Virus record (IMG/VR): IMGVR_UViG_2740892219_000010
Span: 1 to 64,000 of that record
Strand: one strand, 5' to 3'
DNA length: 64,000 nucleotides
From: a virus
Taxonomy: Duplodnaviria; Heunggongvirae; Uroviricota; Caudoviricetes
Below are positions 1,863 through 51,653 of this stretch, piece after piece. The translations under genes and the position numbers were made by a program. Position 1 is the stretch's first letter, and every line of letters begins with the position of its first letter. The notes beneath the pieces were generated by a model. It worked only from the letters and a program-made list of their open reading frames with translations, did not search any database and was not told the DNA's origin.

Positions 1863-3499
1863 CCCGCCGCAGCTGGTTTATCAAACATCGCGCCACGATT
1901 GTACGAACTCGCAGCCTGTCTCAGTCCATCGAGCACCTCCGACGCTGCAGATTGTTGTATTGACTGCGGATCTGTCGCACCGACAATATTGATTTCGATT
2001 TTATTGTTTTGCTCCGGCGCAGGTGTCGAGACTGCCTGCTTCAACGTATCAATATTTAACGTCGACGAATCCAGTGCTGCAGGCGCGGTATTTTTATTTA
2101 CCATCCCGGATAATGGATTAACAAACGCGAGCATTGATTCTGCCTGAGATTTTGCCTGTTCTTGCCGTTCTGGATGCCGCATATTTTCGACAGCCTCTTC
2201 GGCTTTTGCCTTCGCAATATTATCAGCAGTCAATCCAGCGTTCGGTGAATATTTACCTCCCGAATCCATAAACTCTTGATATGCCCGATTATATTCGTCA
2301 TTATAAGTTTTCTGTTCTTCATCTGATTTTTCATCCGGAATAAGCCACTCCAGTTTCTTTACGACAGCCCATATAATCTTCCCGAATTTGACGCAACCTT
2401 CTCCAAAATTGACGATGCCATCCCACATTTTTTTCATACTTTCTGGTTTTACCCACTCAGTAATTGTGCTGACAAAACCACCCTGATTATCCTTAAACCA
2501 GGATGTAAATGTTTCACGTACTGAGTCAAACGTCGGCGCGAGTTCCCCCCCGATTTTACCGAGTGTATCTGCAAGTCCCGACGTAATAGAGCCCCACAGA
2601 TTTGTCACTGATACATGCGCACGCGCCGCCCCTTCCGCACCCTCTTTTGTTAACAAATTCGACTTTTGCGCGTCAGACATTGTCTGTTCCCAGCTTTTAC
2701 CCGTCGCCTTCATATACGTCATGATCTTATTAGCCTCGCCCCCCATGAGCTGGTCAGCGAGGCTCGCCGCTTGCTTCTCATCTTTCATTTCAGAGATGCG
2801 ACGCATAACCTCATTAAACTGTTTTTCCCGATCCCAGCCAGCCATTCGTTTTTTCGTCAGGCCAATTTGAAATAACATGGGATTCAGGCTTTTTTCGTTT
2901 CCGATTTCGCCGATTTTATTTGTAAGTTCTTCAGACAAATCCCCGATATTTTCGCCGTTCAGGCCCGCGGCTTTACCAATATTTTCCCACGCAGCATATT
3001 TTTCGACGCCAACGCCGTAGGACTTCGCCAGACCGAGTTTTTCTGACGTCTCTGCATTCATTGCCAGCGCACCAGCTGCAGCACCGCCAATGAGCCCTGC
3101 CGCGCCAAGTGTCCCCCATTTGATACCCCGCCCCGTAGCCCTCACCGCACCTGCGGCGGCTCGTCCGCCCCATTTTGCAGCTCCTTTTGCGCGACCCGTC
3201 CACTTCTCCAGCCGCTGTTTTTTAGCAAGTTGAGTATTCAGCGCCTCCTGGTCCTGCGTTGTCGCTTTTATTCGACGGTCCAGCTTTTGATACTGAGCAG
3301 ATAAATCAGAAACGTCTTTACCTGCCAGTTTCATTGCTGCGATTTTGTCTTTTAATTTATCCTGACTTTTCGTTAATTTCCCGACAGTAGACGACGTCTG
3401 CCGAATCGCATCATTGAGTTCTGTTGTACCGCGACGAAACGACGGGTCTATTCGCCCACCGAATACAACCTGCGTTTTAAAGTTTTGAGAAATAGCCAT
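1859..3499 (-). CDS. tail tape measure protein
   Basis: 546 aa, coiled-coil rich, with a Gly/Ala-rich hydrophobic segment (GAAKWGGRAAAGAVRATGRGIKWGTLGAAGLIGGAAAGA); located between the E-like chaperone and U-like gene. Confidence 0.75.
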   Translation of the reverse strand: MAISQNFKTQVVFGGRIDPSFRRGTTELNDAIRQTSSTVGKLTKSQDKLKDKIAAMKLAGKDVSDLSAQYQKLDRRIKATTQDQEALNTQLAKKQRLEKWTGRAKGAAKWGGRAAAGAVRATGRGIKWGTLGAAGLIGGAAAGALAMNAETSEKLGLAKSYGVGVEKYAAWENIGKAAGLNGENIGDLSEELTNKIGEIGNEKSLNPMLFQIGLTKKRMAGWDREKQFNEVMRRISEMKDEKQAASLADQLMGGEANKIMTYMKATGKSWEQTMSDAQKSNLLTKEGAEGAARAHVSVTNLWGSITSGLADTLGKIGGELAPTFDSVRETFTSWFKDNQGGFVSTITEWVKPESMKKMWDGIVNFGEGCVKFGKIIWAVVKKLEWLIPDEKSDEEQKTYNDEYNRAYQEFMDSGGKYSPNAGLTADNIAKAKAEEAVENMRHPERQEQAKSQAESMLAFVNPLSGMVNKNTAPAALDSSTLNIDTLKQAVSTPAPEQNNKIEINIVGATDPQSIQQSAASEVLDGLRQAASSYNRGAMFDKPAAAG

Positions 3500-32177: not shown

Positions 32178-32401
32178 TCATCTGGTGGTGAACTGTGCAG
32201 GGTTGGCGTAACCGGCTAAGTGAACCCGGCGCTTCCACAGAAGCCCCCACACAGCCCACCATAATGCGAATGTGGCCGTGCCTAACACATAAAAAAACCG
32301 CTAACGCGGCTATGCGTCACTTAGATATCCGGGACGCCAATCCCGGCAACCGATTTTGCGGCTGCGCGGAAACTATAGCCCCGGACTTTTTCTAAGTCAA
32401 T

Positions 32402-42264: not shown

Positions 42265-42528
42265 ATGAAAAGCGATCACGACATAATCACCAGAGAAGAA
42301 ATGGTCGAGCTGACGGGAAGCCCACTTAAATCAAAGCAATGTGAGGCTCTTCGCCGGGCTGGAATTTTCTTCATGGAAAGGGCTGACGGACACCCAAAAA
42401 CAACCTGGGGCCATTTCATGAACCCAATAAAATTTCGCAATTTACAGGAGGTGACGACGCGAAAAGATGATGAACCTGATTTTGGAGCAATATTTAATGG
42501 CCGGAAAGAGAAAGAACCCAGCAGATAA
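42265..42528 (+). CDS. excisionase-like protein (positional)
   Basis: 87 aa immediately upstream of and overlapping int; start preceded by ATGAGGAAAGACC. Confidence 0.4.
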   Translation: MKSDHDIITREEMVELTGSPLKSKQCEALRRAGIFFMERADGHPKTTWGHFMNPIKFRNLQEVTTRKDDEPDFGAIFNGRKEKEPSR

Positions 42529-43513
42529 CTGGATGCCGCCTCGTGTTTACCAGGGCAAAGCGGCCTACGAATTCAGGAATAAAGATAACAAAGCGATACG
42601 CCTGTGCGCATTGGATGCACCACGATCAGCCGTATGGCTGGCATATGAAAAAGCGGTCGGTGACGAAAAAGAAAGAAATACTTTTCAGGCGCTCGCGGAA
42701 CAATTCATGACCTCCCCTGATTTTATGGATTTGGCAGTCGAAACCAGGAAAGACTACACAAAATATTCCGGAAAAGTTCTGCCTGTCTTCGGGAAGATCG
42801 ACCCGGATAAAATCAAACCTGAACATATTCGGCGCTATATGGATCAACGCGGTTTATCAAGCCGAACTCAGGCAAACAGGGAAAAAAGCTTTATGTCCCG
42901 GGTATTCCGTTGGGGTTATGAACGAGGTTATGTTCAGAGGAATCCTTGTCAGGGAGTTAAACAGTTTAAAGAGACAGCTCGCGAACGTTATATTACGGAT
43001 GAAGAATATCAGGCCGTTTATGAAGTGTCTCCTGACGTCGTTCGCGTGGCAATGGAGATTGCCTACTTATGCGTGGCCAGACAGAGTGATGTACTTTCAT
43101 TGCAGAAAGACCAACTGTTCGATTCCGGGATCTACATTCGTCAGGGAAAAACCGGCGTTAAGCAAATCAAAGCCTGGTCGCCTCGTCTGCAGAAAGCGAT
43201 AGCTCTGGCTCGTTCTCTGCCATTAAAAACGGGAATCAGTAGTCTGTTTGTGATTCATCAAACTACCGGTGGCAAGTACACCCGTGATGGTTTTAACTCT
43301 CGTTGGCGTGATGTCAAAGCTGCGGCACAGGAAAAATATCCTCATCTGCAAATAGACTTCACATTTCATGATCTGAAAGCAAAAGGTATCTCTGATCTGG
43401 AAGGCAGCCTGGAAGAGAAGCAAGCAATTTCCGGGCATAAGAACCCACGACAGACAGCAGCATATGACCGAAAAGTTAAAGTAGTGCCCGTAGTTGGTGG
43501 CCAGAGAAAATGA
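42467..43513 (+). CDS. int: tyrosine integrase (lambda Int family)
   Basis: 348 aa; C-terminal catalytic region (FHDLKAKGISDLEG...GHKNPRQTAAYDRK); transcribed toward the tRNA-Leu core. Confidence 0.85.
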   Translation: MMNLILEQYLMAGKRKNPADNWMPPRVYQGKAAYEFRNKDNKAIRLCALDAPRSAVWLAYEKAVGDEKERNTFQALAEQFMTSPDFMDLAVETRKDYTKYSGKVLPVFGKIDPDKIKPEHIRRYMDQRGLSSRTQANREKSFMSRVFRWGYERGYVQRNPCQGVKQFKETARERYITDEEYQAVYEVSPDVVRVAMEIAYLCVARQSDVLSLQKDQLFDSGIYIRQGKTGVKQIKAWSPRLQKAIALARSLPLKTGISSLFVIHQTTGGKYTRDGFNSRWRDVKAAAQEKYPHLQIDFTFHDLKAKGISDLEGSLEEKQAISGHKNPRQTAAYDRKVKVVPVVGGQRK

Positions 43514-43516
43514 ATG

Positions 43517-43551
43517 ATGATGCGTCCAGAGAAAAATCATCTTCGGACGCA
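43517..43551. repeat. inverted repeat GATGCGTCC-N17-GGACGCATC immediately after int
   Basis: 9-bp perfect arms; adjacent direct repeats CATCTTCGGA x2; possible att arm or Int-binding elements. Confidence 0.4.
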
Positions 43552-43575
43552 TCTTCGGAAATGAGAAAGAAGATA

Positions 43576-43601
43576 CAAAAAAACCACCCGAAGGTGGTTT
43601 C
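43576..43601 (-). terminator. rho-independent terminator (minus strand)
   Basis: ACCACC-CGAA-GGTGGT hairpin followed on the minus strand by a 7-T run; downstream of the tRNA-Leu 3' core. Confidence 0.55.
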
Positions 43602-43643
43602 ACGACACTGCTTATTGCTTTGATTTTATTCTTATCTTTCCCA

Positions 43644-43698
43644 TGGTACCCGGAGCGGGACTTGAACCCGCACAGCGCGAACGCCGAGGGATTTTAAA
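43644..43698 (-). other. 55-nt 3' segment of tRNA-Leu(UAA) (anticodon loop to CCA): attachment-site core
   Basis: Minus strand reads TTTAAAATCCCTCGGCGTTCGCGCTGTGCGGGTTCAAGTCCCGCTCCGGGTACCA, matching the 3' part of enterobacterial tRNA-Leu(UAA) as recalled; upstream sequence cannot form the D-arm or acceptor stem. Confidence 0.7.
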
Positions 43699-43777
43699 AA
43701 CTATCAACCACCATTTATAAATCATAACCTTATGATTTTATTAACTTTGCAAATAGCTCTATACGATGCCATTTGAA

Positions 43778-43820
43778 TCTATTGTCACTTTTTATCGCCA
43801 CTTTTTACCCTCTATTGTCA
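43778..43820. repeat. direct repeats TCTATTGTCA (x2) in the AT-rich arm next to the P2-like int
   Basis: Copies at 43778-43787 and 43811-43820 with CACTTTTTA x2 between them; typical of Int arm-type binding sites. Confidence 0.4.
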
Positions 43821-44806
43821 AAAGGGTTCAATTCAACTGCAGCCTCTAAATGACCTGGAGCAAAATGCGCATAACGCATAGTCATTTTTATATCGCTATG
43901 CCCCAGTATTTTTTGCAACACAAGAATATTTCCTCCCCGCATCATAAAATGACTGGCAAACGTGTGACGTAGCACATGAGTTAATTGCCCATCAGGAAGC
44001 TCGATCTTCGCTCTCTTAATTGCAGCGTCAAAAGCCTCATAACATGGTGAAAATAACGCTCCTCGTTTTTTAGGAAGCATAGCCTGCAATTGAGGTGAAA
44101 TCGGTACAGTGCGGTTCTTCTTTCCTTTAGTTTTAACAAATGTGATTCGACCGGGCAGCACTTGAGATTGCTTTAATCCTTCAGCTTCACTCCACCGAGC
44201 ACCAGTCGCAAGCCCAATACGGACAACAACCCCCAAATCTTTATTCCGTGACTCATCACACGCAATCAGAAGGCGTTCAATCTCATCTACATACAGAAAC
44301 GCCAATTCCTTTTCTTCCTCACGAAACTTGCGAATGCCAGTCAGGGGGTTTTCACCAGACCACTCCCCAAGGCGCTTCAGTTCGGCAAAAACAGCATGTA
44401 GATATGACTGCTCGCGATTAACGGTTGCTTCACTAAGTTTTTTCTTCCCCTTGGGATTCCATTCTCCTGATAACCTCCTTTCCCGATAAGTAGCAAACAT
44501 ATTTTTGTCAAACTGAGAAGCAAATGGATCTCCCAGCCTAGAACAAATAGACTCAAGTTTGACTTTGCGCTCTGCACCAGAGGACAAGGTTTTACCGTAC
44601 ATCTCAAACCAACGAGCAACCAACTCAGAAAGACGAGGACCAGAACCATCTTGAAACTCGTCTCCAACTCTACTATTCATTAAACGGCGCTCATAAGAGA
44701 GCGCCTCACTTTTTGTCGCAAACTGTTTACGAATACGTTTTCCCGATGCCCCGTAAGGATAACATTCGCAAAGCCATTTACCTGATGGAATCTTACGAAC
44801 CGACAT
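43805..44806 (-). CDS. int: tyrosine integrase (P2/186 Int family)
   Basis: 333 aa; catalytic box HVLRHTFASHFMMRGGNILVLQKILGHSDIKMTMRYAHF; transcribed toward the tRNA-Leu core. Confidence 0.85.
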   Translation of the reverse strand: MSVRKIPSGKWLCECYPYGASGKRIRKQFATKSEALSYERRLMNSRVGDEFQDGSGPRLSELVARWFEMYGKTLSSGAERKVKLESICSRLGDPFASQFDKNMFATYRERRLSGEWNPKGKKKLSEATVNREQSYLHAVFAELKRLGEWSGENPLTGIRKFREEEKELAFLYVDEIERLLIACDESRNKDLGVVVRIGLATGARWSEAEGLKQSQVLPGRITFVKTKGKKNRTVPISPQLQAMLPKKRGALFSPCYEAFDAAIKRAKIELPDGQLTHVLRHTFASHFMMRGGNILVLQKILGHSDIKMTMRYAHFAPGHLEAAVELNPFDNRG

Positions 44807-44811
44807 TTTAG

Positions 44812-45159
44812 TTACTTATCACATAAATCAAATGCAGCCTTAGTGACATCTCCCAGATTCTTTTTTAACCCTGGGGCGGCATCATTATCCAGCCAAAATG
44901 GATTATTGTTATCTAACGGTAACGCACCAAATGTTTTACCTTTTATTCGAGCCAAACCTGTAAGCGCATATAACTTATTATCGTCAAAATTCATCACATA
45001 AGGATTACCATCTAGACACTGTAACTGAACCTCATCAGTATTAAATGGCCATACCCCATTGAAACTCTCACGTTCAATATTTTTAAAAGGCATTGCGACG
45101 GCAGAAAAAGAAAACATAGATAAAAAAGTAACTAATAGTTGAACCTTTTTTACTTTCAT
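44812..45159 (-). CDS. secreted/periplasmic cargo protein
   Basis: 115 aa with N-terminal signal peptide (MKVKKVQLLVTFLSMFSFSAVA); RBS GAGGT; between repressor and int. Confidence 0.5.
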   Translation of the reverse strand: MKVKKVQLLVTFLSMFSFSAVAMPFKNIERESFNGVWPFNTDEVQLQCLDGNPYVMNFDDNKLYALTGLARIKGKTFGALPLDNNNPFWLDNDAAPGLKKNLGDVTKAAFDLCDK

Positions 45160-45188
45160 ACCATTACCTCAATTTAGCTCAAGTAAGA

Positions 45189-45839
45189 TTACAAATTAAA
45201 AAACATCCTAGAAATGGCACCACCTACCAAACCCCCTACGCAGATAAAGAATATTATTTCTTTTGGATAAAGTCGGATTAATTCTGAAGCACGAAGTCGG
45301 ACTTCTGGTAAGGTCGAATTCTCTGTGTTGCTTGATACCGATTGTTGCTCTAACCACGACAATGCAGACTGCAACTGAGAACGAGTAAGATCGTTTAAAC
45401 GTCCTGTACCGAAATTGATATGGCAATACCGCAGAAGTTTTTGTCGAAGTCCACAGTCTTCACTGTTACGTAGTAATAAACTTACAAGAGCCTTACAGGC
45501 ATCATGATCTTTACATCGCTCAAGCATTGCATGCAGAAAACTCTCCGCTGTTTTATATTGATTTACTGTCATATCATCAATACCAGCTACACCAATCTCC
45601 GCATGTACTTTTTGCCAAATAATAAACGCTTCAGTATTGCTAGCTTCTGCAATAGCAGCAACCAAGCTATTTAGCTCCTTACGCTGAGCCTTAAGCAAAG
45701 GGCGATCGTCATCATCATTATTCGAAGGGATTGCGATATTGACGGTATGAGAACCATCATATCGCCCTATCTGAATATTCTTTTCGTGAAAATCACGCCC
45801 AGCAACGCGATTGTTTGAACCGTTTGAGTTGACGGCCAT
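45189..45839 (-). CDS. C-tail-anchored membrane cargo protein
   Basis: 216 aa; RBS GGGAGG; single C-terminal TM (IIFFICVGGLVGGAISRMFF); N-terminus NNRVAGRDF repeats the repressor C-terminus NNRIAGRDY. Confidence 0.55.
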   Translation of the reverse strand: MAVNSNGSNNRVAGRDFHEKNIQIGRYDGSHTVNIAIPSNNDDDDRPLLKAQRKELNSLVAAIAEASNTEAFIIWQKVHAEIGVAGIDDMTVNQYKTAESFLHAMLERCKDHDACKALVSLLLRNSEDCGLRQKLLRYCHINFGTGRLNDLTRSQLQSALSWLEQQSVSSNTENSTLPEVRLRASELIRLYPKEIIFFICVGGLVGGAISRMFFNL

Positions 45840-45854
45840 GTCACCTCCCTACTA

Positions 45855-46259
45855 TCACCTACCCTTAGTTTCGTTATAGTCACGCCCAGCGATACGGTTA
45901 TTACCGCCAGAAATATTTAACTCACGTCCTGATGGCTGAGTTTCCTTTTCACTGGCCGCACCTTTTAAAGCCCCGATCACCGCGTTTTTCACATCTAACG
46001 AAGCTGCTCGAAAGCGAGTAATCAACTCCTGCTCATCATCGTTATAAGTTTCAGGTGAGTGAATTCCCAACACAACATACTGAACATCAAGGCCAAAACG
46101 AGACAGCGCTGCCAAATACGCAGCATCAGGAAAGCTATCTCCTTTCTCATATCTAAGCTGAGTTAGCTTTTTGACTCCACCAATGTCGCTCATAGCAACT
46201 TGACTAAGTCCCAATCTTTCCCTTTCCTCACGCAACCTCTGACCAATATCATTTTTCAT
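45855..46259 (-). CDS. immunity repressor (P2 C / 186 CI-like XRE HTH)
   Basis: 134 aa with N-terminal HTH (LGLSQVAMSDIGGVKKLTQLRYEKG); divergent from the cox-like early operon. Confidence 0.7.
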   Translation of the reverse strand: MKNDIGQRLREERERLGLSQVAMSDIGGVKKLTQLRYEKGDSFPDAAYLAALSRFGLDVQYVVLGIHSPETYNDDEQELITRFRAASLDVKNAVIGALKGAASEKETQPSGRELNISGGNNRIAGRDYNETKGR

Positions 46260-46334
46260 ACAAAAACCTTGACAGGTATCTTTTTTGATACCAAAATGAT
46301 TTCACGAGCTATTAGATGATCACAATATATCACT

Positions 46335-46541
46335 ATGAAACAAGTTCTTCACGATACCAGATCACGCATTCCGCGTAACACCGCCACAGGTCCAAGACTG
46401 GCACTTCGGATGTCCCTCGAGGAGCGAGCCGTCATTGATGAAATGGCAGCTAAAGAACAACGCTCATCCTCTAACATGGCGCGCATGATCTTCCTTCGCG
46501 GCCTAGAGCTAACCCAGAAAGAACAAAACAAATCTTCCTGA
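46335..46541 (+). CDS. ribbon-helix-helix DNA-binding protein
   Basis: 68 aa; segment PRLALRMSLEERAVIDEMAAKEQRSSSNMARMIF is RHH-like; first gene of the early operon. Confidence 0.45.
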   Translation: MKQVLHDTRSRIPRNTATGPRLALRMSLEERAVIDEMAAKEQRSSSNMARMIFLRGLELTQKEQNKSS

Positions 46542-46557
46542 TCAGGAGGCTAATGGG

Positions 46558-46761
46558 ATGTCAGGTATAACCATCAATATCAATGTGAATGCCCCCTATG
46601 TATCCCTGCAGAAATATGCAGAGATAACAGGTATCCCTCTTAATACATGCAAAAAGATGTTGGCTGACGGTCGAATTATTATCCGACCCAAACGCGCCAA
46701 AATGGAAAAGCCTGAAGTAAACCTTGTGGCGATGTTAAAAGACGCTTTGGCTAACAGCTAA
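46558..46761 (+). CDS. Cox-like HTH protein
   Basis: 67 aa; YVSLQKYAEITGIPLNTCKKMLADGRI resembles the P2 Cox HTH region as recalled. Confidence 0.45.
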   Translation: MSGITININVNAPYVSLQKYAEITGIPLNTCKKMLADGRIIIRPKRAKMEKPEVNLVAMLKDALANS

Positions 46762-48830: not shown

Positions 48831-51653
48831 GTGGCAACGGAGTACATCAGAAACTGGCAACAACCACGCCATGCAGTCGGTCGCGAGGGAACGGGGGAGC
48901 CTGTCCGCCCCTCCCTTCTTTCTTCCTGGCTGGATGCCTACCGGGCAGAGAACGAGCGCCGCCAGGAAATGGCTGATGCGGCGTTCTCCGCCACGCCGCT
49001 GGGCAATTTGATTAATAAAAACCTGGACGCACAGGAAAAACAGGACAAAGCCATCACACTGGCAAGAGAAGCCAGAAAACAGGCGTGTGGCGCGGTGGAT
49101 GAAGCAATTGCCGCACTGCGCCTGCTGCCGTCCTATCTGCGAGATCCGCTTATCCGCCATCTCTCTTTCCTGCGCAAAAAACAGGAATCCGATCGTCAGA
49201 AAGGCAAAAAGAGCTGGCAGGCTGAACGCTACGCGCGCGGAACCCTGCGCAAAATATTCGAACGTCTGGAGCGCACCGACAGACGCTGGCTGACACCGGG
49301 TTATCGCTCCCTTGCCGGGCGTGAACGCCTGGATGATTTACTTTACCTGCCGCAGCTCAACAAACACCAGATACAGACGCTGGCCGTCATGACAGCGGCG
49401 ATGTTCAGCAGCACCTTCGAAAAACTCTGCGATGACTTTGGCGCGACCGATGGCGAGCTGACCATGGATATAACGCTGAAGGCGTATCAGATGCTGGCCC
49501 GCATGGCGTTACATCTGCACACAGTGCCGCCGCATTATGACGCACTGACAACAGACAAAGACCGGAAGAACGAACCGGACACGGAGCTGCTGCCGGGTGC
49601 AATCCTCCGCCTGACCTGTGCGGACTGGTGGAAACGCAAATTGTGGCTTTTACGTTGCGAATGGAGAGAGGAACAACTCCGCGCTGCCTGTCTGGTTTCC
49701 AGAAAAACATCCCCCTATCTGAGTCAGGACGCATTAAGTGAATTTCGCGCACAGCGCGAGAAAACACGCGATTTCCTGAAAAGTTTCATGCTGGAAAATG
49801 AAGACGGGTTCACGATTGATCTTGAGACGGTGTATTACGCGGGAGTAAGTAACCCGGTCCACCGTAAGGCAGAAATGATGGCCACCATGAAGGGGCTGGA
49901 ACTTCTGGCCGAAGCCCGTGGCGACAAAGCGGTATTTCTGACCGTTACCTGCCCGTCAAAATATCACGCAACAACGGAGAACGGTCATCCGAATCCCAAA
50001 TGGAACGGCGCCACCATGCGCGATTCCAGCGATTACCTGGTTAACACTTTTTTTAAGGCAGTCCGCAAAAAACTGAACCGCGACGACCTGCGCTGGTATG
50101 GTATCCGCACGGTGGAGCCACACCATGACGGCACCGTGCACTGGCACATGATGGTCTTTGCACATCCTGAAGAAATCGACAGCATCGTGGACATCACCCG
50201 TGATATTGCCATTCGCGAAGACCGCCACGAGCTGGGCAATGACATAACTCCGCGCTTTAAGGCAGAGTACGTCGACGGTTCGAAAGGTACGCCGACCAGC
50301 TACATCGCCACCTACATCGGAAAGAACCTGGACAGCCGCGCCGTGGATGGCATTGACCCGAAAACAGGCAAGCCACGCGTTGATCACGAAACCGGAAAAT
50401 CAATGACCGAGAGCGTGGAACGCGCCATCGGCTGGGCGCGCCTTCACCGCGTCCGCCAGTTCCAGTTCTTTGGTATCCCCTCCCGTCAGGTATGGCGTGA
50501 ACTCCGCCGCCTTGCCAGTCAGATGGCCCGCAACCCGGAAGGTCCACAACGTCTGGAAAATGACGCAATGGATGCGGTACTCGCTGCCGCTGATGCCGGG
50601 TGTTTTGCCACCTACATTGAGAAACAGGGGGGCGTACTTGTTCCACGCAAGGATTACCTGATTCGCACCGCCTACGACCTCGCAGAAGAGCTGAACGATT
50701 ACGGCGAGCAAAGCGTACAGATTTACGGGATCTGGTCGCCACAAATCGGGGAATCTTCCCGCGTGTGCACGCACCCGGATAACTGGAAGCTGGTAAGACG
50801 TAAACCGGAAGCGGAAGACAGCGCCCGCGAAAATGGTTTTGACCTTCAGGGCGGCCCTGCCGCCCCTTGGACTCGTGGCAATAACTGTCCCCGTGTACAG
50901 GAAACGGACAACAACGGGACAGAACAGCCGGAAGAACGGCCAGCACCGTGGCCGCAGCTTCCTGACGGCGTTGAAGTGAATGAATGGATGCGCTCACTGA
51001 AACGGCACGAACGCCGGGCGCTGATGCGTTCGCTGCGTGACAAACAGGCAAAAAACAGCAGTGATGAAATGCAGAACTGGACACAGAGCCGCAAACAGCC
51101 GCGGCCTTTGCCTGATAACCACGAGTTACTCGCTAAAGAATGGCGGGAGTCTGCCGAATCTCTCGGCCTGCATATCGGTAAACAACAGATGCTGCACCTG
51201 TTACGGGGCGGCAGTCTGTACGTTGACGGCAGCATCATTGCGCCGCAGGGATATGAAATTGTACGTAAACCGGATACCCGACCGGACAGCCGAATCACGC
51301 AGCTCTGGCAGCGCCTGAGCCGTAATCACAGCGTAAGCAGCACGGAGATCCGCCATAACCCGGTTTCCAGCTATCTGAAACAGCTCGGTGCATCAGACCC
51401 AGAAGCCGCCGCACGCCTGGCATCCACACTTCAGCAGGACCAGAACACCATGAAAACCCCCGTTACCGTGCTTTCTGACATGCTGCGCGCCATCCGTGAC
51501 GCAGAGCACGCACAGAGAATCAGTGAAACCACTGAACGCGCCCACCGCAAAGCAGACCTGCTGCGGGGTGGCCTGACCCGTGGGAACAAAAAACAGACAG
51601 AAACGGGATTCACAAATCCCGTAAATGAGCAAAAAACGCGCCGCGAAATATGA
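48831..51653 (+). CDS. replication initiation endonuclease (P2 gpA-like rolling-circle Rep) with long C-terminal extension
   Basis: 940 aa; HUH-type motif (TVHWHMMVFAH) and Tyr motif (SYIATYIGKNLD); P2 A is ~760 aa, so ~180 extra C-terminal residues. Confidence 0.8.
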   Translation: MATEYIRNWQQPRHAVGREGTGEPVRPSLLSSWLDAYRAENERRQEMADAAFSATPLGNLINKNLDAQEKQDKAITLAREARKQACGAVDEAIAALRLLPSYLRDPLIRHLSFLRKKQESDRQKGKKSWQAERYARGTLRKIFERLERTDRRWLTPGYRSLAGRERLDDLLYLPQLNKHQIQTLAVMTAAMFSSTFEKLCDDFGATDGELTMDITLKAYQMLARMALHLHTVPPHYDALTTDKDRKNEPDTELLPGAILRLTCADWWKRKLWLLRCEWREEQLRAACLVSRKTSPYLSQDALSEFRAQREKTRDFLKSFMLENEDGFTIDLETVYYAGVSNPVHRKAEMMATMKGLELLAEARGDKAVFLTVTCPSKYHATTENGHPNPKWNGATMRDSSDYLVNTFFKAVRKKLNRDDLRWYGIRTVEPHHDGTVHWHMMVFAHPEEIDSIVDITRDIAIREDRHELGNDITPRFKAEYVDGSKGTPTSYIATYIGKNLDSRAVDGIDPKTGKPRVDHETGKSMTESVERAIGWARLHRVRQFQFFGIPSRQVWRELRRLASQMARNPEGPQRLENDAMDAVLAAADAGCFATYIEKQGGVLVPRKDYLIRTAYDLAEELNDYGEQSVQIYGIWSPQIGESSRVCTHPDNWKLVRRKPEAEDSARENGFDLQGGPAAPWTRGNNCPRVQETDNNGTEQPEERPAPWPQLPDGVEVNEWMRSLKRHERRALMRSLRDKQAKNSSDEMQNWTQSRKQPRPLPDNHELLAKEWRESAESLGLHIGKQQMLHLLRGGSLYVDGSIIAPQGYEIVRKPDTRPDSRITQLWQRLSRNHSVSSTEIRHNPVSSYLKQLGASDPEAAARLASTLQQDQNTMKTPVTVLSDMLRAIRDAEHAQRISETTERAHRKADLLRGGLTRGNKKQTETGFTNPVNEQKTRREI
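51604..51621. promoter_or_regulatory. palindrome CGGGATT-CACA-AATCCCG (copy 1)
   Basis: 7-bp inverted arms; inside the 3' end of the A gene; second copy 73 bp downstream. Confidence 0.45.

What the first reader, a model, noticed from the sequence alone, without database searches (positions are those of the whole stretch)
44812..46259. Two cargo genes co-transcribed with the P2-like repressor and integrase; the membrane protein starts with a copy of the repressor C-terminal motif
A C-tail-anchored 216-aa membrane protein and a 115-aa signal-peptide protein lie between repressor C (45855-46259) and int, all on the minus strand with short gaps and good RBSs, so they should be expressed in the lysogen from the repressor promoter. 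The repressor ends ...NISGGNNRIAGRDYNETKGR and the next protein begins MAVNSNGSNNRVAGRDFHE. The DNA shares the core TCACGCCCAGC at 45881-45891 and 45794-45804. This could be a recombination scar marking cargo acquisition, or a shared peptide tag.
Basis: seen in the sequence. Interest (0 to 1): 0.55.

Follow-up and report, generated by a model that had tools for sequence, protein, structure and literature searches.

The report
Phage repressor and partner share peptide
The prophage's repressor ends with the same short peptide that begins the membrane protein encoded next to it, and across many unrelated phages the two copies change together, which suggests an undescribed physical link between a lysogeny repressor and a partner protein that is usually membrane-anchored.

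Summary
The repressor (45855-46259, minus strand) ends ...LNISGGNNRIAGRDYNE and the next protein (45189-45839) begins ..VNSNGSNNRVAGRDFHE: 11 of 17 residues identical, p about 1e-4. The shared DNA 11-mer lies one base off the stated coordinates.

The 216-aa protein is not cargo. It is a Flk_N-domain, C-tail-anchored protein that follows this repressor family in P2-like prophages and in Mu-like transposable phages, including BcepMu gp17/gp18.

The peptide differs between lineages, but each repressor tail resembles its own partner's N-terminus more than other partners' (permutation z 4.1-10.9 in the larger sets, p 1e-4 or less). Synonymous codons differ, so this is protein-level co-evolution, not a recombination scar. 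Partners with unrelated architectures keep the peptide. Both copies lie in segments that AlphaFold2 leaves unstructured.

Only the third gene (DUF2511, 44812-45159, GC 0.35) behaves as exchangeable cargo.

Best reading: the peptide is a homotypic docking motif that couples the repressor to a mostly membrane-bound regulator. The closest known logic is the amyloid signalling motifs shared by adjacent genes. Binding and its effect are inferred, not shown. I found no paper describing this.

The parts
45855..46259 (-). Immunity repressor, 134 aa. It has an XRE-type HTH (aa 5-64), two further helices (aa 74-105) and a disordered tail (aa 105-134).
   Evidence: Pfam HTH_31/HTH_3 give weak hits. PHROG families for transcriptional repressors match. 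AlphaFold2 gives high pLDDT for aa 1-104 and below 50 for aa 105-134. It sits divergent from the Arc-like and Cox-like genes. The homologue BcepMu gp17 is treated as the lysogenic repressor in PMC2628397.
45870..45920 (-). Repressor C-terminal motif, LNISGGNNRIAGRDYNE (aa 114-130). It is followed by the basic end TKGR and three in-frame stops.
   Evidence: Alignment and shuffle test. The motif is conserved as [IV]N[IV]SG.G[NHQ]R[IV]AGRD[YF][NH]E in Enterobacterales homologues and is replaced by other motif types in distant ones.
45189..45839 (-). Partner protein, 216 aa. It has an N-terminal motif, an Flk_N helical domain (aa 45-171) and a C-terminal transmembrane anchor (aa 191-214).
   Evidence: Precomputed Pfam PF27202 Flk_N on homologues. 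NCBIfam Flk, E 4e-16 over aa 36-169. 28% identity to E. coli K-12 Flk over 124 aa, E 2e-10. AlphaFold2 model.
45783..45833 (-). Partner N-terminal motif, VNSNGSNNRVAGRDFHE (aa 3-19).
   Evidence: Present in nearly all full-length sequences among the 120 listed homologues. It lies in a low-confidence segment (aa 1-44) of the AlphaFold2 model. It co-varies with the repressor tail across lineages.
44812..45159 (-). DUF2511 (YebY-like) secreted protein, 115 aa. This is the exchangeable cargo slot.
   Evidence: Pfam DUF2511, 25.7 bits against a cutoff of 21. Weak match to YebY structure 7n0j. GC is 0.351, against 0.41-0.45 for the neighbouring genes. The slot holds other genes in related prophages.
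43805..44806 (-). P2-type tyrosine integrase, the last gene of the block.
   Evidence: Pfam Int_N plus Phage_integrase. 38% identity to P2 Int over the full length, E 1e-74.
46260..46334 (.). Switch region between the repressor and the early operon. A promoter-like site for the early (+) operon lies at 46269-46297.
   Evidence: Promoter scan found TTGACA-17-CAAAAT on the + strand. No consensus match was found for the leftward promoter.
46335..46761 (+). Early-operon regulators: an Arc-like repressor (46335-46541) and a Cox-like excisionase/repressor (46558-46761).
   Evidence: PHROG 3431 and PHROG 575. Annotation of phage 520873.

Best explanation
The repressor and the 216-aa protein form a conserved two-gene immunity module.

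Anatomy. The repressor is an HTH domain plus a short helical domain. A flexible Ser/Ala/Gly linker leads to a peptide of roughly 17-25 residues and a short basic end. The next gene encodes a protein that starts with the same kind of peptide on its cytoplasmic N-terminus. In this window that peptide is followed by an Flk_N helical domain and a C-terminal membrane anchor.

Inferred mechanism. The two peptide copies are homotypic docking elements that pair with each other, probably as beta strands. Pairing couples the repressor to its own partner at the inner membrane. Because the peptide differs between heteroimmune phages and each pair matches, the partner would act only on its cognate repressor. 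Tail-less relatives of the repressor occur in similar prophages without such a partner. The module therefore looks like a regulatory add-on rather than part of repression itself. The most likely role is capture or sequestration of the repressor, an induction or anti-repression switch set by the state of the partner. Stabilisation or localisation of the repressor is the alternative direction.

Shown here: conservation of the pair, position of the motif, co-variation, protein-level selection, disorder of both segments, portability of the motif onto different partner architectures, and variability of the third gene.

Inferred only: physical binding, and the direction of its effect on repression.

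The DUF2511 gene is a separate lysogenic-conversion-type cargo riding in the same operon.
For: (1) Universality. The motif heads nearly all full-length sequences among the 120 listed homologues of the partner. It ends most Enterobacterales repressor homologues.

(2) The pair travels together. It is found in Klebsiella and E. coli P2-like prophages. It is also found in Mu-like phages of Pectobacterium, Gilliamella and Pseudomonas and in BcepMu as gp17/gp18.

(3) Co-variation. Examples: IFNGDISGQFAGNQIIN with EFNGTAQGQFSSRDIIN; VHGGVAAGDIVN with VHGGVAGRDIYN; GGVQIGSVAG with AGVQVGKVGG; NSSGGQVAGRNIIN with NRNDGQVAGRDINN.
- 26 clusters: cognate score 42.5 against 27.2 for non-cognates, p<1e-5.
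- Within motif classes: z 4.1-4.6, and z 1.8 for the NR class.
- 42 clusters: z 10.9, with the cognate ranked first in 12.
- 11 pairs chosen using non-cognate scores only: z 4.8, p 2.5e-5.

(4) Not gene conversion. The same codon is used at 45% of identical residues, against 36% in non-cognate pairs.

(5) Portability. Partners without a detectable Flk_N domain still start with the cognate motif. They include 2-TM proteins, a Zn-ribbon protein with a tail anchor, and some apparently soluble proteins.

(6) Both motif copies sit in low-pLDDT segments next to confident domains.

(7) The tail-less repressor homologue P0224 lacks a motif-bearing partner. So do chromosomal tail-less homologues.

(8) A Salmonella locus has three repressor paralogues with different HTH domains and the same tail, upstream of one partner.

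(9) Only these two ORFs in the 64-kb window carry the motif.
Against: There is no experimental or structural evidence of binding. I could not run a complex prediction.

Co-variation could also arise if a third, phage-encoded factor recognises both peptides.

Within the Enterobacterales NR-AGRD class the cognate excess is weak (z 1.8, p 0.036).

One lineage (L119/L120) has a tailed repressor followed by a signal-peptide protein without the motif.

A few partners seem to lack a membrane segment (L191, L213, L222), so membrane tethering is not universal.

Start codons of partners in metagenomic loci were assigned by rule, not verified.

Cluster representatives are not fully independent phylogenetically, so the permutation p-values overstate independence.
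Confidence: 0.55

Rival explanations
1. Both peptides are handles for a third component, not for each other. That component could be a phage-encoded anti-repressor, an adaptor or a protease. It would recognise the same motif on the repressor and on the membrane protein, and would co-evolve with both.
Against: No third ORF with the motif, and no conserved third gene, accompanies the pair across P2-like and Mu-like backbones. The neighbouring genes differ completely. A host factor is unlikely. Pectobacterium carries both the NR-AGRD type (P0157, P0172) and the FNG type (P0171) of tail. Only the FNG tail was shown next to its matching partner.
Confidence: 0.17
2. The peptide drives self-assembly of each protein separately: cooperative oligomerisation of the repressor on DNA, and clustering of the membrane protein. 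The 216-aa protein would then be an independent lysogenic-conversion factor, for example an Flk mimic acting on the flagellar export gate or a superinfection-exclusion protein.
For: The protein shares the Flk_N domain and tail anchor with host Flk, which holds the flagellar type III export gate in early mode (PMC13344023). It is expressed from the lysogenic operon, as many exclusion genes are.
Against: Independent self-assembly does not explain why each tail tracks its own partner's head through many sequence changes without gene conversion. It also does not explain why unrelated partner architectures keep the cognate motif. No PADLOC defence family matches. The phage-type family occurs in hosts such as Pseudomonas, Burkholderia and Gilliamella. 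The Flk-like long proteins form a separate motif-less group.
Confidence: 0.1
3. The similarity is a recombination or duplication scar left when cargo was inserted behind the repressor.
For: An exact 11-nt word is shared 87 nt apart, with a chance expectation of 0.05.
Against: Apart from the Ala-Gly-Arg-Asp codons, the two DNA copies differ at most synonymous positions. The motif is conserved at the protein level in homologues spanning Enterobacterales to Burkholderia. Cognate similarity exceeds non-cognate similarity, and a single old scar cannot give that. The real cargo junction is downstream of the 216-aa gene.
Confidence: 0.02

Closest known systems
Amyloid signalling motifs shared by adjacent genes: bacterial BASS motifs of Bell/NLR pairs, E. 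coli Bab/Agp BASS11, and fungal HET-S/NWD2.
   Same: A motif of roughly 20 residues sits at the C-terminus of one protein and the N-terminus of the product of the adjacent gene. It lies outside the folded domains. Within-pair similarity is higher than between-pair similarity (bioRxiv 10.1101/2024.11.07.622273; 10.1101/2020.01.06.895854). The orientation matches: the C-terminal copy is on the protein acted upon and the N-terminal copy is on the presumed sensor. In the L191 and L222 pairs both copies carry a hydrophobic-Gln-hydrophobic-Gly tetrad. Only L222 fits the full G-phi-Q-phi-G signature noted for RHIM/PP/BASS3.
   Different: The C-terminal copy is on a DNA-binding repressor, not on a pore-forming Bell/HeLo domain. 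The N-terminal copy is on a small, mostly membrane-anchored protein, not on an NLR/STAND or TPR-nuclease sensor. The Enterobacterales motif (NNR[IV]AGRD[YF].E) is charged and does not fit the G-phi-Q-phi-G signature. Fibril formation is untested.
Flk (Fluke/RflH), the tail-anchored regulator of flagellar type III secretion specificity in Salmonella and E. coli.
   Same: Flk_N helical domain (28% identity over 124 aa, E 2e-10). Cytoplasmic orientation with a single C-terminal membrane anchor (PMC13344023).
   Different: Host Flk is about 330 aa, starts MIQPISGPPPG..., and lacks the N-terminal motif. The window protein scores 59 bits against an equivalog cutoff of 353. It is encoded in a prophage immunity operon next to a repressor that carries its motif.
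The P2 immunity operon (C-int, transcribed from Pc, divergent from cox).
   Same: A repressor gene first and int last on one strand, divergent from a Cox-like early operon. The integrase is 38% identical to P2 Int.
   Different: P2 has no genes between C and int, and its 99-aa C protein has no tail. The repressor here shares only HTH-level similarity with P2 C. Its closest named phage relative is BcepMu gp17.
Repressor-plus-adjacent-regulator modules of other mobile elements, for example ImmR/ImmA of ICEBs1 and the CTX-phi RstR repressor inactivated by RstC-driven aggregation (recalled from my own knowledge, not tested here).
   Same: An XRE-type repressor is co-encoded with, or controlled by, a dedicated protein that inactivates it post-translationally.
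   Different: Those partners are a metalloprotease or a small soluble aggregator. Neither shares a peptide motif with the repressor, and neither is membrane-anchored.

Membership tests
Flk (NCBIfam NF007987 equivalog, flagella biosynthesis regulator) | Full-length match above the curated cutoff (353 bits). | tested here: not met
   59.2 bits, covering only profile positions 19-152 of 339.
Flk (NCBIfam NF007987 equivalog, flagella biosynthesis regulator) | Flk_N domain. | tested here: met
   PF27202 Flk_N is precomputed on nearly all homologues. BLASTP against E. coli K-12 Flk gives E 2e-10.
Flk (NCBIfam NF007987 equivalog, flagella biosynthesis regulator) | A single C-terminal membrane anchor with a cytoplasmic body. 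| tested here: met
   AlphaFold2 helix at aa 191-214, with a hydrophobic C-terminus. Topology is inferred.
Flk (NCBIfam NF007987 equivalog, flagella biosynthesis regulator) | Controls the flagellar export specificity switch. | not testable with these tools
   Requires genetics, such as FlgM secretion in ring mutants (PMC13344023).
Amyloid signalling motif pairs (BASS/ASM) | The same short motif at the C-terminus of one protein and the N-terminus of the adjacent gene's product. | tested here: met
Amyloid signalling motif pairs (BASS/ASM) | Within-pair similarity exceeds between-pair similarity. | tested here: met
   Permutation tests give z 4.1-10.9; the NR-AGRD class alone gives z 1.8.
Amyloid signalling motif pairs (BASS/ASM) | The motif lies outside the globular domains, in a segment that is unstructured in the monomer. 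| tested here: met
   pLDDT is below 50-60 for partner aa 1-44 and repressor aa 105-134.
Amyloid signalling motif pairs (BASS/ASM) | Gly/Asn/Gln-punctuated beta-arch sequence, for example G-phi-Q-phi-G. | tested here: inconclusive
   Both copies carry a phi-Q-phi-G tetrad in lineages L191 and L222; only L222 fits the full G-phi-Q-phi-G signature. Glycine-punctuated FHG.VGQ.V.G.I.N types are common. The window's own motif is charged (R, D, E). No amyloid predictor was available.
Amyloid signalling motif pairs (BASS/ASM) | An NLR/STAND-type sensor and a Bell/HeLo-type membrane-disrupting effector. | tested here: not met
   The domains here are an HTH repressor and Flk_N or other small, mostly membrane-anchored proteins.
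Amyloid signalling motif pairs (BASS/ASM) | The peptides form fibrils and template each other. | not testable with these tools
   Needs ThT or Congo-red binding, electron microscopy, and foci assays as in bioRxiv 10.1101/2024.11.07.622273.
P2 C-type immunity repressor | First gene of the leftward operon ending in int, divergent from cox. | tested here: met
   Gene order.
P2 C-type immunity repressor | Sequence homology to P2 C beyond the HTH. | tested here: not met
   33% identity over 46 aa only. No PDB relative at E 0.01, so the solved P2 C structure was not matched.
DUF2511 / YebY family (third gene) | Pfam PF10709 above the gathering score. | tested here: met
   25.7 bits against 21. Weak phmmer hit to YebY 7n0j, E 0.009.
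Prophage cargo (moron) | Variable presence at a fixed slot among otherwise related prophages, with deviant base composition. | tested here: met
   This holds for the DUF2511 gene only. The slot holds DUF8087, a 288-aa protein, a 173-aa protein and others. GC is 0.351. It does not hold for the 216-aa gene, which is constant.

The most novel reading that the evidence does not exclude
The shared peptide is a bacterial amyloid-like signalling motif used as a lysogeny switch. When the partner is triggered or clustered, its N-terminal motif templates the repressor's C-terminal tail into an ordered beta assembly. That removes the repressor from DNA in an all-or-none, self-propagating way and induces the prophage. 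This would be a prion-like induction mechanism for P2-like and Mu-like phages, whose induction triggers are poorly understood. BcepMu, for example, is derepressed by H2O2 through an unknown mechanism (PMC2830190).
Probability: 0.18. Interest if true: 0.9.

Novelty: new variant of a known kind. Interest (0 to 1): 0.72.

Why it matters
If the peptide is a docking or templating element, a widespread class of temperate phages controls its master repressor through a dedicated partner, usually membrane-anchored. These phages include a P2-like prophage module found in about 9.5% of complete E. coli genomes and the Mu-like phages of the BcepMu type.

That would give a concrete, testable route to induction or immunity control in phages that have no known RecA-cleavable repressor. 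It would extend the 'shared motif between adjacent genes' signalling logic from cell-death systems to transcriptional switches. It would also suggest a function for the Flk_N domain.

Practically, it corrects annotation. The gene is labelled 'hypothetical', 'membrane protein' or 'flagella biosynthesis regulator', and in the RefSeq record of phage 520873 it is not annotated at all. It also separates the true cargo slot (DUF2511) from the regulatory module.

Tried and rejected
- PADLOC gave no defence-system match for either downstream gene.
- A single-protein scan of viral contigs with the Pseudomonas partner found nothing.
- The genome-contig scan returned only 10 loci, all close relatives.
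It showed a small family (137 clusters) and no HTH-Flk_N fusion protein, so there is no 'Rosetta stone' fusion.
- Read-through or deletion fusion of the two ORFs: they are in frame here, but three consecutive stops separate them. In other loci the spacing is -4 to +33 nt in various frames, so a fusion is not a conserved feature.
- Gene conversion was rejected on codon identity.
- The Fc02 phage exclusion genes (PMC9936078) lie upstream of a different repressor and are unrelated.
- Literature searches for Flk_N or PF27202, for membrane-anchored anti-repressors, and for prion-like repressor control found no description of this pair.
Full report
**1. What is in the window**

Four co-oriented genes lie on the minus strand:
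- an HTH repressor, 45855-46259, 134 aa
- a 216-aa protein, 45189-45839
- a 115-aa signal-peptide protein, 44812-45159
- an integrase, 43805-44806

The gaps are 15, 29 and 5 nt. The simple scan finds no terminator-like site on that strand inside the block. A promoter-like site for the divergent early operon (Arc-like and Cox-like genes) lies at 46269-46297.

The element is a Xuanwuvirus-type P2 relative. It is 99% identical to phage 520873. At least 80% of the 3.1-kb region is present in 516 of 5,426 complete E. coli genomes, next to yecA. The integrase is 38% identical to P2 Int. The repressor shares only HTH-level similarity with P2 C, and P2 has nothing between C and int.

**2.

Repressor aa 114-130 (LNISGGNNRIAGRDYNE) aligns with aa 3-19 of the next protein (VNSNGSNNRVAGRDFHE). 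The score is 62, against 29.1 ± 4.7 for shuffles, p about 1e-4. No other ORF in the 64-kb window has the motif.

The shared 11-mer TCACGCCCAGC occurs only at 45793-45803 and 45880-45890, one base off the coordinates given. Outside the Ala-Gly-Arg-Asp codons the two DNA copies differ at synonymous sites.

**3. The 216-aa protein is not cargo**

Its homologues carry Pfam Flk_N (PF27202). It matches the NCBIfam Flk model over aa 36-169 (E 4e-16, far below the equivalog cutoff). It is 28% identical to E. coli K-12 Flk over 124 aa.

AlphaFold2 gives three regions:
- a confident helical domain, aa 45-171
- a C-terminal membrane helix, aa 191-214
- an unstructured N-terminus, aa 1-44

Nearly all full-length sequences among the 120 listed homologues begin with the motif.

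Gene neighbourhoods show the same repressor-partner pair in several settings:
- Klebsiella and other E. coli P2-like prophages
- Mu-like transposable phages of Pectobacterium, Gilliamella and Pseudomonas
- the classical Burkholderia phage BcepMu, as gp17/gp18

The KS10 paper treats BcepMu gp17 as the lysogenic repressor (PMC2628397).

Only the gene after the partner varies. It is DUF2511 here, and DUF8087, a 288-aa protein, a 173-aa protein or others elsewhere. The DUF2511 gene also has the lowest GC of the block (0.351). It is the real cargo.

**4. The motif co-varies**

The repressor family has a conserved HTH and helical core and a variable tail. In each lineage the tail resembles the N-terminus of its own partner:

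| Repressor tail | Partner N-terminus |
|---|---|
| IFNGDISGQFAGNQIIN | EFNGTAQGQFSSRDIIN |
| KQTFHGSVGQSVAGNVTN | SQDFHGDVGQAAAGDINN |
| VHGGVAAGDIVN | VHGGVAGRDIYN |
| GGVQIGSVAG | AGVQVGKVGG |
| NSSGGQVAGRNIIN | NRNDGQVAGRDINN |
| KILIEGNIG | KILIKGDTG |

Permutation tests on cluster representatives:

| Set | Result |
|---|---|
| 26 clusters | cognate score 42.5, non-cognate 27.2, p<1e-5 |
| Within motif classes | z 4.1-4.6; z 1.8 for the Enterobacterales class |
| 42 clusters, tail-less controls included | z 10.9; cognate ranked first in 12 |
| 11 pairs chosen from non-cognate scores only | z 4.8, p 2.5e-5 |

An ancient duplication followed by independent divergence would not make cognates more alike than non-cognates. 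Recent gene conversion would make the codons identical. Instead, only 45% of identical residues share a codon, against a 36% baseline. The similarity is therefore maintained by selection on the proteins.

**5. The motif is portable**

Some partners lack a detectable Flk_N domain but still start with the cognate motif. They include two-TM proteins with a C-terminal amphipathic helix, a Zn-ribbon protein with a tail anchor, and multi-TM proteins. Longer forms retain a weak Flk_N match and add a coiled coil, one TM segment and a two-cysteine periplasmic domain. A few partners appear to be soluble.

Tail-less repressor homologues are not followed by a motif-bearing protein.

A Salmonella locus has four tandem repressor paralogues upstream of one partner. 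Three of them have different HTH domains but the same tail.

The repressor tail (aa 105-134) is unstructured in the AlphaFold2 model.

In 1.84 billion representative proteins, only 137 clusters match the family. The phage-type members start with a motif variant. The long Flk-type members (MQP.SG..., 320-430 aa) do not. No HTH-Flk_N fusion protein appears.

**6. Mechanism**

The simplest reading is that the peptide is a homotypic docking element. It couples each repressor to its own partner, which is usually at the membrane. Tail-less relatives occur in similar prophages without a partner, so the module looks like a regulatory layer. Capture or sequestration of the repressor, acting as an induction switch, is my preferred direction. 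Stabilisation or localisation is the alternative. Binding and direction are both inferred.

Rivals:
- a third factor that recognises both peptides: possible, but no conserved third gene travels with the pair
- independent self-assembly plus an unrelated conversion function: does not explain the co-variation
- a recombination scar: contradicted

**7. Comparison with known systems**

The closest logic is that of amyloid signalling motifs shared by adjacent genes. In E. coli Bab/Agp, the C-terminus of Bab and the N-terminus of Agp share BASS11, and phage infection triggers templating. Bell/NLR pairs were found by the same within-pair similarity criterion.

Here the positional, within-pair and disorder criteria are met. 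In the L191 and L222 pairs both copies carry a phi-Q-phi-G tetrad, and L222 fits the full G-phi-Q-phi-G signature noted for RHIM/PP/BASS3. The domains are different, however. The window's motif is charged, and fibril formation is untested. I therefore treat this as an analogy and a hypothesis (probability about 0.18), not as membership.

Relative to Flk, the protein shares the domain and the anchor. It fails the equivalog test and carries an extra N-terminal motif.

I found no paper describing the pair or the motif. A microarray study reports that the BcepMu early operon is derepressed 8-10-fold by H2O2, by an unexplained mechanism (PMC2830190). That is at least compatible with a non-canonical induction route.

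**8. Verdict**

The finding uncovers a conserved, apparently undescribed repressor-partner module with a co-evolving shared peptide. Interest is 0.72. I class it as a new variant of a known kind of adjacent-gene motif signalling.

Noticed in passing
window 42467-43804: A second tyrosine integrase (42467-43513, + strand) faces the P2-like int across about 290 bp. That stretch holds a tRNA-3'-end-like sequence. It also holds 99 bp (43600-43698) that match 5,425 of 5,426 E. coli genomes and resemble the attP region of phage mEp390. ARAGORN finds no intact tRNA. This looks like two prophages in tandem at one attachment site.
   Followed up: partly
window 32181-32378 (- strand): Rfam finds isrK, a C4 antisense RNA and its a1/b1 target in the neighbouring element. 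This is a P1/P7-style antisense immunity cassette.
   Followed up: no
window 45849-45857: The repressor ORF ends with three consecutive in-frame stop codons (TGA TAG TAG), just before the Shine-Dalgarno sequence of the partner gene. The two ORFs are in the same frame here.
   Followed up: partly
L188:1794-4185: A Salmonella prophage carries four tandem repressor paralogues, followed by a single Flk_N partner. Three have distinct HTH domains but nearly the same ...VNVSGNSNRVAGRDYNEK tail; the fourth has a decayed tail. This may be a stacked multi-immunity array served by one partner.
   Followed up: partly
L271:2501-3696 (BcepMu gp17-gp18): The well-known phage BcepMu has the same module: tail QEQVFHGSVGQAVKVEG and partner head KQEFNKPVGQAIQAGE. 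gp18 has a two-cysteine periplasmic domain after its TM segment. A published microarray study shows the BcepMu early operon derepressed by H2O2, with an unknown mechanism.
   Followed up: partly
P0286-P0360 and L189:1451-2443: Host Flk proteins are longer and motif-less, and they form a separate group within the Flk_N family. The motif-bearing phage type is found in a wider range of hosts, including Pseudomonas, Burkholderia, Ralstonia and Gilliamella. Flk could be a domesticated phage gene. This is speculative.
   Followed up: no
L001 (NC_049344.1) 2039-3081: The RefSeq record of phage 520873 leaves the Flk_N and DUF2511 genes unannotated and splits the integrase into two CDS. tblastn recovers the Flk_N gene in four pieces. 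The cause is probably sequencing frameshifts in that record.
   Followed up: partly
L002:11233-15101 (relative of window 48831 onward): In a 98%-identical prophage, the 940-aa replication endonuclease is followed by ParM and a plasmid partition protein. These are plasmid-like maintenance genes in a P2-like prophage. The window has the same 940-aa ORF at 48831-51653.
   Followed up: no
L119 and L120, 2501-3526: This lineage is an exception. The repressor keeps a full motif tail (SFHGPVGQAAQGDIKN), but the next gene encodes a signal-peptide protein without the motif. No motif-bearing ORF was seen among ORFs of at least 60 aa on the repressor strand in the 2 kb downstream.
   Followed up: partly
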